DNA from: Aplysia californica
Lineage: Eukaryota
Length of the DNA: 64,000 nucleotides
Reading direction: 5' to 3'
Assembly (NCBI RefSeq): GCF_000002075.1
Contig: NW_004797277.1
Location: forward strand, 1,939,700-2,003,699
The notes under the pieces were generated by a model. It saw nothing but the letters and a program-made list of their open reading frames with translations, had not been told where the DNA came from and made no database searches. Shown here piece after piece: positions 11,701 to 58,700 of this stretch. Position 1 is the stretch's first letter; each line of letters starts with the position of its first letter. The position numbers and the translations under genes are program-made.

Positions 11701-13754
11701 TGTAAACTTTCAAGAAAACGAGAAAACAAGTTTTTACCAAACATGTTGTAAACACTTTTTACAACAACAAAATAAACAAATGTTGTTCTGACTGACTTTC
11801 TAAAGTCACTCAAGCTCAGCATGTCAATCGCCAAGTCAAAATTCGCGAGACGACTCATACAGCACCAATTTGAAAACTGCCCACTTTCTTTTGCTCGCCA
11901 GTATATGATCAAATATTGCTAAAGTCACTAACTGGCTGCAACCCCATGTTTGACAGATAATAAAAGAGTGCATCAAACATCAACACATTAACAGAGTAGG
12001 CCTACAATCAATCATAGATATGGAGCCTCATTTTTTTCAAGACTGTGAGATCATTGCAAATCAGTTTTTTATTGCCTCAAACACAGCTAGTCAGCTCTGC
12101 TGTAGTGTGCTGAGTGCTCCCCGCATGGGAGGGGGGGGGGGTCCACATATTTTCACAGTTTCGCAGAAGGATTGATACAGAATTATTCCAGGCTGATGAC
12201 TTTATTCTAATAGAAAATGAACTGATCTTTCTATTGGTACCTTTTTTGAGCCGGTATTTTTCATAATTCGTGTTTAAAATGATTTTTGAAAACTTTGAAG
12301 GTATTTTTAAAGGCTTTCTGCTTAAATGCCAAGGGCCAAAAATATACCACGCGAAACCCCGTTTAAAGGTAAATAGTCCCCTGTTAATAAAAAGATGGTA
12401 TTTAATCATCAATCTTTCCCCGAAGCATTCGAATACATAGGTGTCAATTTTTAAACCGGCAGACCACGCATTCCGACCGAGAGGGGCTTTGCTTTCCACT
12501 GCAATTCTACAGCCCTAAATACTCAGATACAGAAACAGCATACATCATTGTACAGAGGAGCTGAACTTTTTCAAAGTGTTCGGCATTTGGTCTTTTGTAG
12601 GGAAAGAGCAAAGAAACAGCCATTCGAATTACCCCCATTTCCCCGAAACCATGTGTTCAGAAGGCTACGAGGCTATGTTTATGCTACCTACATTTATGGG
12701 ATTTTTTATACCGGTGTATGTATAATTGGTCTAATTTTATGTATTCTGTAGTAGTGGATTAAGAAAATACTATGAAACAGATGTGATACAACAAAGGAAA
12801 CATTTTTTCCATACCCACACAGAACAGCTTATGTCGCATTATCATTGCTGTCACTGCACAAACTGCCAGACTCAGTAATTAATTGTTGTAATCATCTCCT
12901 TCAGAAACTCCTGAAATCAGCAGCTGCAGCTATGACTATAACAGCTAGGGCTTTCTCAATCTGTCCCTCGCACCATTGCTCACTTATTCTCACTTGCAAA
13001 AAAATCCAACAAATGTACAGGTCTAAGTTGTCTCAAACAAGCTCAAAATGTGTTTGCTTGTTTACATTTTGAGGGCAATTGGATCAACAATAATATTAGG
13101 TAGCTGCTGAAAACGTGATGTTGTAAAATAAAAGCTACCACGAACGCATGATGTGTCAATACAAAATGAGACACTTTGTGAATCAAAGACAACATTGCCA
13201 CCCCAGTGGAATGTGTAAATGCAATCAACTCTTCCATCATTTCTCTGGCAGTAAAGAGTATAAAGACTAAACTAAAGATATAGGCGTCACATATTCTTCT
13301 TTAGGTAAAATAAACAATAAACTGTGTGAGGTTGTAGATTTTTCTCAATTTGGAAAATCTTAAAGAAGCATTCACGACCAAATTGTCTGTGTGATACTTA
13401 TTTTTGACGTCTTGAATTAAACGTTTTTAGCTAGGCTTAACTTTGTACTATAATTAGATCTAGATCTAGATTCTAGATCTAGAAATCTAGATCTAGATCT
13501 AGATTCTAGATCTAAAACTAATCAGTTTGGCTCAGTTTCAGAGTTTGTCCGACATGGAAACGAGAAAAGAAAGTATGAATAACAGCCTCCAAAGTATCTG
13601 ATTCAAGTTAACACTATTTTACACATCTTAGTATTGTACAAAAACATATATGTAAGTGCTTGGTAGCCTTTGTTTCATTCTTACATCTGGTAGTTTTGAC
13701 CATCTGATTCAAAAATTGTTCCTTCGACTGCCTGCTGCTGTGCTTGGACGCCAT
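2722..13754 (-). CDS. EFCAB1: EF-hand calcium-binding domain protein 1 (calaxin-like), complete, 7 coding exons, 233 aa
   Basis: complement(join(2722..2850,5740..5844,6445..6510,7229..7314,7727..7831,8451..8591,13685..13754)) = 702 nt; all introns GT-AG and phases match. Translation [29 protein letters not shown]...[18 protein letters not shown]...[63 protein letters not shown]...[14 protein letters not shown] carries EFCAB1 motifs as recalled (TDDxxMDRVFRxFD, EEDPDE, LLLEAxGxCLPD). Confidence 0.9.
3300..3690 (+). mobile_element. Decayed non-LTR retrotransposon fragment with RNase H domain
   Basis: Broken frames read IFTDGS...[16 protein letters not shown]...ILTDSMSTL...[14 protein letters not shown], the catalytic motifs of RNase HI-type domains in LINEs. 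Antisense within the last EFCAB1 intron. Confidence 0.8.
4909..5150. mobile_element. piggyBac-like MITE
   Basis: TTAA|CCCTATCCGTA ... TATGGATAGGG|TTAA: terminal inverted repeats with TTAA on both sides. Confidence 0.75.
9430..9650. mobile_element. piggyBac-like MITE
   Basis: TTAA|CTCTTT ... AAAGAG|TTAA; interior richer in CpG than the flanks. Confidence 0.55.
10266..12690 (+). repeat. Dispersed repeat family A, copy 1 (host of the Tc1 insertion)
   Basis: Aligns by eye with 32207-33199 (reverse) and 44226-44760 (forward), e.g. TAGGTACCAGAAACTAAATTTT and CCAAAAATATACCACG. Confidence 0.75.
10414..11903 (-). mobile_element. Tc1/mariner (DD34E-type) transposon, full length, transposase pseudogenised
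   Basis: 26-bp TIRs TACTGACGAGCAAAAGAAAGTGGGCA / TGCCCACTTTCTTTTGCTCGCCAGTA (1 mismatch) with TA TSDs at 10412-10413 and 11904-11905. Transposase is split across frames (~11599 to 10674): MPRLS..., [38 protein letters not shown]. Confidence 0.93.
13455..13514. repeat. (TAGATC)n palindromic microsatellite
   Basis: Directly visible; in EFCAB1 intron 1. Confidence 0.95.
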
Positions 13755-13978
13755 TTTTACACAATAATGTTGCTATGAATAACACGCATGCGCACTTTAC
13801 TTTTACTGCGCTTCTAACCTTTTGATAAACTAAAACTGAGGCAAAAAATGTTTTATACCGACAAGCATTTTTGTTTGAATACTTAAGAAGCTCAAATAAC
13901 CAAATAAAACAGAAATGATATAATACTGTGACGCCAATAGAAAAGGGTCTCAGCAGGTTCGCACTATCATACTTCATC
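13755..13978. promoter_or_regulatory. Bidirectional promoter / 5' UTRs between EFCAB1 and NMT
   Basis: 224 bp separate the divergent ATGs. Contains an X-box-like GTTGCTATGAATAAC (13769-13783), an NRF1-like ACGCATGCGCA (13784-13794) and TGACG-CCAAT (~13929-13938). Confidence 0.7.
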
Positions 13979-55741: not shown

Positions 55742-58700
55742 ATGTTTCTTGTCGGTCTTACAGGCGGAATAGCCAGCGGTAAAAGCACTGTAGCGAAAGA
55801 GTTTCAAGCTTTAGGGTGCCCCTGTGTCGACGCCGACTTGATCGCAAGACAAGGTAGGCCTGGACTGTAGATTAATCACCTTGACAATTAGAGTCTACAT
55901 GTATTTACTGTATTATGTATTGAAATAATCATAGGCCTGCTTATTACTAATGGATTAATAGGCTATAGGCTAATCGGAAACGAAGCGACTATTCGGACTC
56001 GAGTCGGAATATGAAAAAATGTTATTCGGACTCTGATTGTTGTCCAGCATGACGTCACTGCCGACTTCCTGTGACTCGTGACTCCGGCTTCCTGTCCTGC
56101 CTCACTAGTGACTCGCCTCAGGCTGGGTAGAGACCGGGATCACTTCGGGCTAAATGGCGTTCAATTGTGCACGAGCCGAGTTTTTATCTTATGATGAATT
56201 TGAGGCCGGCCTGAAAAGTTAAAGCGCTTCTAATAAATGTTTATTTTATTTGTCAAGAGGTCATCAGAAGCAATTAAAGATGGCTCGTTAGCGTGTGTCG
56301 GGGTCGGATGGGCGGCCTGCACACGGTCAGACAGGATAGCAATTGAGATGAGAGGTGTGAAGTTGGCTGTGTGTGTGTGTTTGGGGGGGGGGGGGGGGAC
56401 ACGTACTATCGGTCCGGGCGTTGAATGTCGCATACGCGTCAGTCCCCCCCCCCCCGGCAACTGATCATTATTACAATAATAAGCTAGTCTTGACGTAGAT
56501 ACGAAATGAATTGTGCGCTGGTCTATGGAATCAAAAGTTGCCGTATGCTCGGCTCTACACAGCAACACAACTTTTTCTTGGTAAAACTATCGAGATGACA
56601 CAGGCATATGTGTATTTGAACGAATCGGTCTTTTTTTTGGGCCACCTCTATTCTCACCCCGGGTGAGAATAGCGCAGGCGAGTCTTTTGGCTATTCTCAC
56701 CCGGTGGGCGTTCACCGTTATAGCCTAGGCCAACCAGTGAAGCGTTCATCCTGAACCACAGAATTCTACACTGTGATAACAGAATTATAGAATTCTGTGC
56801 TGTGAACAAACGTTGTAGATCTATTACTACTGTTAGTGTTAGCCTACAAGCGTGCAATTTTGTCTGTGGGCAGTGGAGAGAGAAAAAGAGAGAGAGAGAG
56901 AGGAGTAGCGCGAGAACTTCCGGGCAAAACAAAATGGCGACCCGCGTAGTTCGGCTCGAATCGGATAGTTAAATAGCCGTAGCATCTTTGTAGACAACCA
57001 AATTAATTTAGTTTTGTTTTTTAACATCATTTTAAAACTTTGTTTTGGTCAATTTGATCGTCCACACCGATAGACAGTATTCAGAAAGAGACAGAGAGAG
57101 AGAGAGAGAGAGAGAGGAGGGGGGGGGGAGTAGATCTTGCGAGAACTTCCGGGCAAAACAAAATGGCGACCCGCATAGTTCCGCTCGATTCGAAAAGTGA
57201 AATAGCCATAGCATCTTTGAAGACGACCAAATTAGCTTACTTTTGTGCTATAACGTAATTTTTTCTAGGCTTTTATCAATTTCATCATCCACACCGATAG
57301 ACAGTATTCCAAAATGAGGAAAAACAGGTCTTGTTTCACACCGGGTGAGAATAGCCTACGCTGGCAAGTCTCACCCTGGGTGAGAGGTAGATCGTATTTT
57401 TATTCTCACCCCGGGTGAGAATAGCCACTTCCTTTTTTTTTACACAGCTCATAATATATGCAGGTGCCAGGTGATCTGCTAATCTTCAATTTTACCTTTT
57501 TCTACAACGAAGAAAGTGGGAAACATGGGGGGTGGGGGGGGGGGGGGCGTATCAATGAGGCGGCGGGCATCGGATCGGCAGATAAAGTGTGGGGGAAACT
57601 AGAAAATGGCGGAAAATTGGAAGCACTGAACGTTAGATCTATAGAACGAAGACACTTCCTTTTTTCCGGACCGTGTCCGAATAACATTTTTTCATATTCG
57701 AGTCCGATTATAAAATTTTTTTATTCGGACTCGAGTCCGAATATATGAAAAAATGTTATTCGAATAATGATGGCCAATTGGAAAGTGCCTATTTGCAACG
57801 CCGCGTTGCGATTAGCGCCAGTGCTAAATAAAACGCTGCGTTGCGATTAGCGCCAGTGCTAAAAAAAACCGCTGCGTTGCGATTAGCGCCAGTGCTAAAT
57901 AAAATGCCGTGTCGCAGTGTGTAAAATATTAAGCTTAATCTTCACATCGTCATCGAAAGTTCTGATGGCCGAAGTGACAGCACGTCTGCGCTTGAAGTCA
58001 AACCATTATTTTTTTAGCATGGGTTCGATCCCGGTCCTGGACGGTTTTTTTTTCTTTTTGTTTTTTTGTTGTTGTTGTCCTCTTCTCGACTGACCAACAA
58101 ATTGTTCCCATAATTATATCTTGTTGCTTTGTAGTTTTCTTTATGTAGTGAAGAAGCATGCACATTCTGGTTTTGTCCCCAAGAGGAGCTCTGTACAAAG
58201 TAGGCCTTAGTATAGCCTATACTTTTCCTTTTACCAATTTAAGCCTGGTTAAAGTTCAGTAGTGGCTTTCCTTGGTCTGTGAGTCTAATTTTTTTTTTTT
58301 TAATTGTAAGCTCAGGGGAAGGAAAAAGAAAAACCTTTCGGGACCGGGATTCGATGCCGCGCTTGGAAGCACTGAACATTAGACTTGGAGAACGTAGACA
58401 GTAGACAGCTTGTATACCACGTTCTCTAGGCCTAACTTAAAGTTCGAGTTGCACCGTCTTGTTATTGTTATCCAAGCATCTTTCGACTTAAACTTGCTCA
58501 AACTCTAACTGAGATGATTATGATTGAGAGATGAACAAGACATCTACTTTTGTGCAAACAATGTCAGAAATTGTTAGATCTAATCTAGATCTAGATTTTT
58601 CTAGATCTAGAATCTAGATCTACCCAATATTAATCGGAATAAGACAACGTCTTAATAAAAGGAGTCAAATCCTAGGAAGTTTATTAAAAAACTGAGAAAG

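What the first reader, a model, noticed from the sequence alone, without database searches (positions are those of the whole stretch)
13685..55853. NMT-DCAKD microsynteny with an apparent promoter-partner swap by one inversion
Seen: order EFCAB1(-) NMT(+) RBM48(-) DCAKD(+), i.e. two divergent pairs. Established: human NMT1 and DCAKD are head-to-head neighbours on 17q21. Inference: inverting the NMT..RBM48 block, with breakpoints inside the two bidirectional promoters, gives NMT head-to-head with DCAKD (the human arrangement) and EFCAB1 head-to-head with RBM48. This suggests an ancient four-gene cluster whose divergent partners were exchanged. Both NMT (uses myristoyl-CoA, releases CoA) and DCAKD (last step of CoA synthesis) are CoA-linked. 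I also recall RBM48 and EFCAB1 being neighbours in some non-mammalian vertebrates but cannot verify this.
Basis: partly seen in the sequence, partly recalled or inferred. Interest (0 to 1): 0.72.

Follow-up and report, generated by a model that had tools for sequence, protein, structure and literature searches.

The report
Old four-gene neighbourhood, reshuffled promoter partners
In this sea-slug genome four unrelated genes sit as two back-to-back pairs, and vertebrates carry the same four as two different neighbour pairs on duplicated chromosome segments, which likely reflects one ancient neighbourhood that was rearranged and split, an ordinary kind of conserved gene order.

Summary
The order EFCAB1/calaxin(-) NMT(+) RBM48(-) DCAKD(+) is real; all four genes are intact. 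Both pairs are tightly head-to-head: 224 bp lie between the EFCAB1 and NMT start codons, and spliced RNA contigs place RBM48's non-coding first exon at most 273 bp from the DCAKD start codon. Accession order in other snails and slugs supports the EFCAB1-NMT-RBM48 linkage, so a misjoin at the 100-N gap is unlikely; Elysia chlorotica shows a rearranged order (NMT, EFCAB1, RBM48). In vertebrates DCAKD/NMT1 are divergent, and RBM48 lies near EFCAB1 in chicken and zebrafish; the two pairs lie on segments of the same genome-duplication paralogon. An ancient four-gene neighbourhood split by reciprocal gene loss is the best reading (about 0.6). The CoA link has no support here. Chance co-location within one ancestral chromosome is not excluded (0.1-1.2 such blocks per genome in a null model). 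DCAKD linkage was seen in this genome only. Known kind of feature; modest interest.

The parts
2722..13754 (-). EFCAB1/calaxin-like gene, 7 coding exons (13685-13754, 8451-8591, 7727-7831, 7229-7314, 6445-6510, 5740-5844, 2722-2850), 233 aa
   Evidence: exact exon fit to P0008; best PDB matches are calaxins at E 5e-57 to 3e-51, next family 2e-18; one of two calaxin paralogues in G000
13755..13978 (.). 224-bp region between the EFCAB1 and NMT start codons; holds both 5' UTRs and the inferred bidirectional promoter
   Evidence: sequence and exon models; start sites not mapped
13979..33299 (+). NMT (N-myristoyltransferase), 13 coding exons, 534 aa; single copy
   Evidence: exact fit to P0031; NMT and NMT_C families; all 12 genome matches at this locus
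33300..36271 (+). probable long NMT 3' UTR (inferred; AATAAA at 36213 and 36266)
   Evidence: motif positions only; end not mapped
40565..40664 (.). 100-N stretch between the 3' ends of NMT and RBM48, beside a CENP-B/Tigger-like transposon remnant
   Evidence: not bridged by any listed contig; linkage supported by consecutive RBM48-NMT accessions in Biomphalaria
41365..48105 (-). RBM48 coding exons (47971-48105 with ATG at 48093, 46452-46645, 45369-45514, 43103-43947, 41365-41397), 446 aa; single copy
   Evidence: exact fit to P0001; human RBM48 match E 5e-19 for one exon; spliced contigs
48106..55373 (-). 7268-bp intron in the RBM48 5' UTR, repeat-rich
   Evidence: joint 48105-55374, ends CT..AC, in 4 of 4 runs
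55374..55468 (-). RBM48 non-coding first exon (minimum extent)
   Evidence: contig pieces reach 55450, 55457 and 55468; contigs cannot show the true start
55469..55741 (.). at most 273 bp between RBM48's first exon and the DCAKD ATG; inferred second bidirectional promoter (core perhaps 55469-55581)
   Evidence: the narrower bound rests on one contig, 55582-55778, in one run
55742..62294 (+). DCAKD exons 1 (55742-55853) and 2 (62091-62294); exons 3-4 lie beyond the window; 225 aa; single copy
   Evidence: CoaE family

Best explanation
The four genes are likely the remnant of one ancient (snail-vertebrate ancestor) gene neighbourhood, kept here as two compact back-to-back pairs that probably each share a promoter, and likely split in vertebrates by genome duplication followed by reciprocal gene loss plus at least one local inversion. 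Shown: the two tight divergent pairs here; linkage of EFCAB1, NMT and RBM48 across euthyneuran gastropods by accession order; the two vertebrate pairs on sister segments of the Hox paralogon. Inferred: common descent of the neighbourhood, and the route. The route I favour is a flip of the whole EFCAB1/NMT pair (NMT< EFCAB1> RBM48< DCAKD>), which breaks neither promoter; one vertebrate copy then loses EFCAB1 and RBM48, leaving NMT1 head-to-head with DCAKD, and the sister copy loses DCAKD, leaving RBM48 and EFCAB1 tail-to-tail with PEX1 as RBM48's new head partner. What persists is proximity and the divergent layout, not a particular partner, so no pathway-level co-regulation is needed. Which order is ancestral is not determined.
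For: Gene models and spacing. EFCAB1 and NMT carry consecutive accessions in 8 of 10 other gastropod species where both were retrieved, share a scaffold in 1, and lie on different contigs in 1. RBM48 is on the same contig as, or numbered next to, EFCAB1/NMT in 5 of 5 other species where it was retrieved. Order RBM48-NMT-EFCAB1 in Biomphalaria glabrata (two assemblies with all three) and B. pfeifferi; order NMT-EFCAB1-RBM48 in Elysia chlorotica (EGW08_004044/45/46), consistent with the pair having flipped as a unit at least once. Vertebrates: DCAKD/NMT1 divergent, PEX1/RBM48 divergent; chicken chr2:22-23 Mb window lists FZD1, PEX1, RBM48, EFCAB1; FZD2, C1QL1 and FMNL1 (human 17:44.6-45.2 Mb, chicken 27) and FZD1, C1QL3 (chicken 2:22.13 and 20.12 Mb) are quadruplicates C and D of paralogon 1 with the HOX genes (PMC8040251 supplement); a duck gene model fusing DCAKD to a C1q domain fits DCAKD lying beside C1QL1; Grn paralogues mark the same two regions (PMC4527844 passages). 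RBM48 has a third divergent partner, a Dpy19-family gene, on metagenome contig L037.
Against: Only two lineages (euthyneuran gastropods, vertebrates) are shown; no bivalve, annelid, brachiopod, echinoderm or amphioxus order could be read. DCAKD's place was seen only in this genome. Accession order is a proxy and gives no strands; Bradybaena shows one local swap between accession and locus-tag order. Aplysia and Biomphalaria share one order, so by parsimony the Elysia order is a derived flip, not a preserved ancestral state. The null model gives 0.1-1.2 chance blocks per genome, and paralogy of the vertebrate segments fits chance within one ancestral chromosome as well. PEX1, HEXIM and Dpy19 homologues are on other contigs of G000. 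DCAKD/NMT1 was listed only for three amniotes in the 64-species survey. Calaxin has two paralogues here, which doubles the chance of a match. The strand of EFCAB1 in chicken or zebrafish was not obtained.
Confidence: 0.6

Rival explanations
1. Chance neighbourhood: the four genes belong to one ancestral chromosome, and gastropods and vertebrates independently brought them close by ordinary intrachromosomal shuffling; broadly expressed genes tend to end up in divergent pairs.
For: Null simulation with linkage groups kept: 0.1-1.2 such blocks per genome. Flanking vertebrate neighbours tested (PEX1, HEXIM) are not on this scaffold. RBM48 has three different divergent partners in three sources.
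Against: Real conserved pairs are far commoner than the null's single pairs in slowly evolving genomes (448-492 retained in amphioxus and Lottia; PMC3514665 Results, against 48-150 by chance). Both vertebrate pairs fall in one four-gene block with no fifth gene found between them.
Confidence: 0.22
2. One reading: one inversion of NMT..RBM48 with both breakpoints inside the promoters exchanged partners, the other state being EFCAB1< RBM48> NMT< DCAKD>.
For: It is one step from the order here and gives NMT head-to-head with DCAKD directly. Both intergenic regions are short enough to be shared promoters.
Against: It needs two breaks inside windows of 224 and at most 273 bp. It predicts EFCAB1 at RBM48's 5' end; vertebrates have PEX1 there (8 species) and EFCAB1 on the other side in the chicken list. 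No lineage with EFCAB1/RBM48 head-to-head was found; the Elysia order is NMT-EFCAB1-RBM48.
Confidence: 0.12
3. Functional CoA cluster: NMT (uses myristoyl-CoA) and DCAKD (last step of CoA synthesis) are kept close for co-regulation.
For: DCAKD is described as a monofunctional dephospho-CoA kinase (PMC9974488 and PMC9311062 passages); the human pair is 294 bp apart.
Against: Here their 5' ends are about 41 kb apart and each shares its upstream region with an unrelated gene (a ciliary calcium sensor; a minor-spliceosome protein). CoA-using genes are common (recalled), and the GO similarity score of the human pair is only 0.33.
Confidence: 0.04
4. Assembly artefact: the two pairs were joined wrongly at the 100-N stretch (40565-40664).
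For: The stretch sits beside a transposon remnant and a short duplicated sequence; no listed contig bridges it.
Against: RBM48 and NMT have consecutive accessions in three B. glabrata assemblies and in B. pfeifferi, and share a scaffold in Physella and Elysia chlorotica. The two N stretches inside RBM48 are crossed by spliced contigs.
Confidence: 0.02

Closest known systems
Conserved ancestral microsyntenic pairs (CAMPs; Irimia et al. 2012, PMC3514665)
   Same: Unrelated genes tightly linked in distant animal lineages; enrichment of 5'-5' layout with under 1 kb between genes; molluscs retain many.
   Different: Here four genes, the orientation and partners are not conserved, and only two major lineages are shown (the definition asks for four). 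I could not read the paper's list, so these pairs may already be in it.
Human bidirectional pairs DCAKD/NMT1 and PEX1/RBM48 (Davila Lopez et al. 2010, PMC2871058 Table S5)
   Same: Same genes, same compact divergent layout (294 and 242 bp).
   Different: Partners differ: NMT pairs with calaxin and RBM48 with DCAKD in this genome.
Reciprocal gene loss on the vertebrate Hox paralogon (2q, 7p/q, 12q, 17q; PMC2211742, PMC8040251)
   Same: The two vertebrate pairs lie on quadruplicates C and D of this paralogon, as do FZD2/FZD1 and C1QL1/C1QL3.
   Different: The tables list ohnologue families; these four genes were not found in the part of the file held, so their placement is by neighbours.

Membership tests
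CAMP (Irimia 2012) | Non-paralogous genes | tested here: met
   EF-hand, NMT, RBM48 and CoaE families
CAMP (Irimia 2012) | Four or fewer intervening genes | tested here: met
   NMT-DCAKD and EFCAB1-RBM48 each have one gene between them here; vertebrate adjacency
CAMP (Irimia 2012) | Linkage kept in at least four major animal lineages | tested here: inconclusive
   two lineages shown; partner accessions for other phyla could not be obtained
CAMP, coregulated 5'-5' class | Head-to-head orientation conserved across the species sharing the pair | tested here: not met
   NMT/DCAKD divergent in amniotes but co-directional here; RBM48 faces DCAKD here and PEX1 in vertebrates
Bidirectional gene pair | Divergent genes with 5' ends under 1 kb apart | tested here: met
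   224 bp between start codons; at most 273 bp from RBM48 first exon to DCAKD ATG
Bidirectional gene pair | One promoter drives both genes; correlated expression | not testable with these tools
   contigs cannot show starts or levels; raw reads were dominated by repeats
Calaxin/EFCAB1 | Closest characterised relatives are calaxins, clear of NCS and calcineurin B families | tested here: met
   177-196 bits to four calaxin chains, 70 to the next
Calaxin/EFCAB1 | One-to-one orthology with vertebrate EFCAB1 | tested here: inconclusive
   second paralogue on C41, 59% identical; exon 6 scores favour the window gene (38-45 vs 31-37 bits), exon 2 is even or slightly favours the paralogue; no tree with vertebrate sequences could be built
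Metabolic (CoA) gene cluster | Pathway genes adjacent or sharing regulation | tested here: not met
   NMT and DCAKD are separated by RBM48 and have separate upstream regions

The most novel reading that the evidence does not exclude
The human DCAKD/NMT1 bidirectional promoter is a chimera: after vertebrate genome duplication, deletion of an EFCAB1-RBM48 block fused the outer halves of two ancestral bidirectional promoters, while the sister segment kept RBM48 and EFCAB1. Reciprocal ohnologue loss would then be a route by which bidirectional promoters change partners, and snails preserve the unsplit four-gene block.
Probability: 0.25. Interest if true: 0.55.

Novelty: new member of a known kind. 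Interest (0 to 1): 0.3.

Why it matters
Deeply conserved gene neighbourhoods number in the hundreds, so one more is not surprising. Its value is as a worked case: it links two vertebrate neighbour pairs, on human 17q21 and on the 7q21-equivalent region of chicken and fish, to one invertebrate block, and it suggests that the back-to-back layout can persist while partners change. That argues against reading shared function into every conserved bidirectional pair, including the human DCAKD/NMT1 pair that appears in white-matter GWAS (PMC7195435 passages).

Tried and rejected
No RNA holder was on record in the run search; two raw RNA runs laid on 38-58 kb were dominated by repeat reads and gave no start sites. 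No listed contig bridged the 100-N stretch (a hole proves nothing). The DCAKD search of 50% representatives gave no gastropod record with an accession among the 6 looked up of 150 listed, so DCAKD synteny in other molluscs stayed untested. The metagenome scan with an RBM48 alignment gave 4 short loci, none with NMT, calaxin or DCAKD matches. PEX1, HEXIM and Dpy19 homologues are on other contigs of this fragmented assembly. No U12-type donor at any intron of the four models, so no minor-spliceosome link inside the block. No tRNA genes. Literature: searches for RBM48+EFCAB1 (7 papers), DCAKD+NMT1 (36, 30 listed), calaxin+synteny (0), full names of DCAKD and NMT (1), NMT1/NMT2 with paralogon terms (1, unrelated) and RBM48 with synteny terms (44, 15 listed) showed no title or abstract start describing this four-gene block; these cover only the held library. 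Supplements unseen that bear on novelty: the CAMP list of PMC3514665 and Table S4 of PMC2871058 (too large); the PMC8040251 file was cut when stored; PMC7269912 supplements had no hit; PMC10976558 supplements had no hit. Four look-ups in earlier scan findings returned nothing on these genes. The Atlas search only confirmed RBM48.
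Full report
What is in the window. The window is G000:C7:1939700-2003699. Its exons are identical to database proteins named for Aplysia californica. Four intact genes were modelled with GT-AG introns: calaxin/EFCAB1 (7 exons, minus strand, ATG 13754), NMT (13 exons, plus, ATG 13979), RBM48 (5 coding exons, minus, ATG 48093) and DCAKD (4 exons, plus, ATG 55742, last two exons beyond the window). 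Family support. NMT, DCAKD and RBM48 each match one locus in the genome. Calaxin has a second intron-containing paralogue on C41, 59% identical over the shared columns. The other gastropod calaxins used below are 77-89% identical to the window gene and 57-64% to the paralogue. Against chordate calaxins the window gene scores higher on exon 6 and about equal on exon 2, so both are probably co-orthologues.

Two tight divergent pairs. Only 224 bp separate the EFCAB1 and NMT start codons. RBM48 and DCAKD looked loose (7.6 kb between ATGs), but contigs of 4 of 4 RNA-type runs from 3 studies splice 48105 to 55374, so RBM48 has a non-coding first exon reaching at least 55468, at most 273 bp from the DCAKD ATG; one contig in one run covers 55582-55778 and would narrow the gap to 113 bp. 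These runs are guessed to be RNA, and contigs show neither starts nor strands; the canonical splice is the evidence. A shared promoter is inferred from spacing, not shown.

Is the join real? A 100-N stretch lies between the 3' ends of NMT and RBM48, next to a CENP-B-type transposon remnant, and no listed contig bridges it. Independent assemblies support the linkage. I used accession order and contig length as a proxy for position (inference; no strands). EFCAB1 and NMT are consecutive in 8 of 10 other species where both were retrieved (Biomphalaria glabrata, B. pfeifferi, Bulinus, Lymnaea, Bradybaena, Plakobranchus, Elysia crispata, E. chlorotica), on the same scaffold in Physella, and on different contigs in Candidula, whose NMT clusters with a second Bradybaena copy on another chromosome. 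RBM48 accompanies them in 5 of 5 species where it was retrieved. Biomphalaria runs RBM48-NMT-EFCAB1 as here (for example KAI8793450/451/452). Elysia chlorotica runs NMT-EFCAB1-RBM48 (EGW08_004044/45/46). DCAKD could not be placed in any other mollusc.

Vertebrate side, from papers. PMC2871058 (passages, and rows of supplementary Tables S2 and S5): DCAKD/NMT1 divergent, 294 bp, in human, mouse and chicken; PEX1/C7orf64 divergent, 242 bp, in 8 vertebrates (C7orf64 = RBM48 is recalled). PMC10976558 (table passage): chicken chr2:22-23 Mb lists FZD1 ... PEX1, RBM48, EFCAB1, FAM133B. PMC4527844 (passages and figure text): rbm48 and efcab1 appear near the zebrafish short granulin genes, in a region syntenic with human 7q21.2, while the other Grn group sits on human 17 and chicken 27. 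PMC8040251 (passages and supplement rows): FZD2, C1QL1, FMNL1 and HOXB4 are quadruplicate C, and FZD1, C1QL3 and HOXA4 quadruplicate D, of paralogon 1; FZD1 is at chicken 2:22.13 Mb. PMC2211742 (passages) names the Hox paralogon. That DCAKD/NMT1 lie between C1QL1 and FMNL1 is recalled; it fits a duck gene model fusing CoaE to a C1q domain and the chr17 GWAS locus in PMC7195435 (passages; older coordinates). That NMT2 lies near C1QL3 is recalled and untested. So the two vertebrate pairs sit on sister duplicated segments.

How the orders relate. Of the 10 single inversions of the order here, 4 leave NMT head-to-head with DCAKD once intervening genes are removed: EFCAB1+NMT, EFCAB1..RBM48, NMT alone, and NMT..RBM48. 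The other three put EFCAB1 on RBM48's 3' side, as in the chicken list. I favour the flip of the EFCAB1/NMT pair because it breaks no promoter and the Elysia order shows such a change can occur; it predicts tail-to-tail RBM48 and EFCAB1 in chicken and fish, which I could not check. Since Aplysia and Biomphalaria agree, the Elysia order is by parsimony a separate, later flip. The ancestral order is open.

Chance. A shuffle keeping genes within 17-24 ancestral linkage groups yields 0.1-1.2 four-gene blocks per genome that hold two disjoint vertebrate neighbour pairs; parameters are my assumptions. Real conserved pairs are several times commoner than the null's single pairs in slowly evolving genomes (PMC3514665, abstract and first part of Results). 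I put descent from one neighbourhood at about 0.75 over all routes and chance at about 0.22. No wider shared neighbourhood was found: PEX1, HEXIM and Dpy19 homologues lie on other contigs.

Function. DCAKD is described as a monofunctional dephospho-CoA kinase (PMC9974488, PMC9311062; passages), but here it shares its upstream region with RBM48, and NMT shares its own with calaxin. RBM48 faces PEX1 in vertebrates, DCAKD here and a Dpy19-family gene on contig L037. The pattern fits a persistent divergent layout with exchangeable partners better than pathway co-regulation.

Novelty and verdict. Conserved microsynteny and bidirectional pairs are well described; this is a new example, not found as such in the searches listed under Tried and rejected, though the main published list could not be read. 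Observation confirmed and sharpened; interpretation partly supported; interest 0.3.

Noticed in passing
L037:312-2540 (-) and 2812-4050 (+): Metagenome contig with an intron-free RBM48 reading frame head-to-head with an intron-free Dpy19-family frame (743 aa, E 1e-233), their frames under 300 bp apart: a third divergent partner for RBM48.
   Followed up: partly
G000:C41:806353-811099 (L033): Second calaxin-like gene with the same exon pattern, 59% identical to the window gene; intronless, more distant EF-hand matches on C523 and C158.
   Followed up: partly
window:13786-13793: GCATGCGC, resembling the NRF1 site (label recalled), in the 224-bp EFCAB1/NMT region; 2 matches in the window against 0.35 expected, 3 of 100 shuffles reach 2; picked after the fact. 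TGACG half-sites at 13929 and 55432.
   Followed up: partly
window:10677-11597 (-): Broken Tc1/mariner-type transposase remnant in EFCAB1 intron 1 (HTH_Tnp_Tc3_2, E 3e-8).
   Followed up: partly
window:39970-40524 and 59909-60476: Two 86% identical copies of a CENP-B/Tigger-like element, each beside an N stretch; 39591-39696 and 40689-40794 form an inverted pair.
   Followed up: partly
window:15304-15754 and 56637-57309: A repeated element (81% identical) in the first introns of both NMT and DCAKD; all four first introns are long (5.1-8.1 kb) and repeat-rich.
   Followed up: no
window:13448-13523, 14511-14648, 54515-54570, 58575-58800: Runs of the self-complementary TAGATC-type microsatellite just inside the first introns of EFCAB1, NMT and RBM48 and in DCAKD intron 1.
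   Followed up: no
L016:7647-7991 (+), L014:7101-7394 (-), L005:1660-2142 (-): Flanking genes: a TPP-enzyme exon (weak Pfam match) that I recall as HACL1-like, a stomatin-like-2-looking exon, and an LRRC74-looking exon (both labels recalled, no family hit).
   Followed up: partly
L010:2076-3341: Long tandem repeat open in several frames (ESAP-rich on the + strand, about 390 aa) about 7 kb left of the window.
   Followed up: no
P0283: Duck database protein fusing DCAKD to the end of a C1q domain, probably a gene-model merge with the neighbouring C1QL gene.
   Followed up: partly
P0040, P0304, P0305: Bradybaena has a second NMT on another chromosome, clustering with the Candidula NMT; would fit the land-snail genome duplication (recalled).
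   Followed up: no
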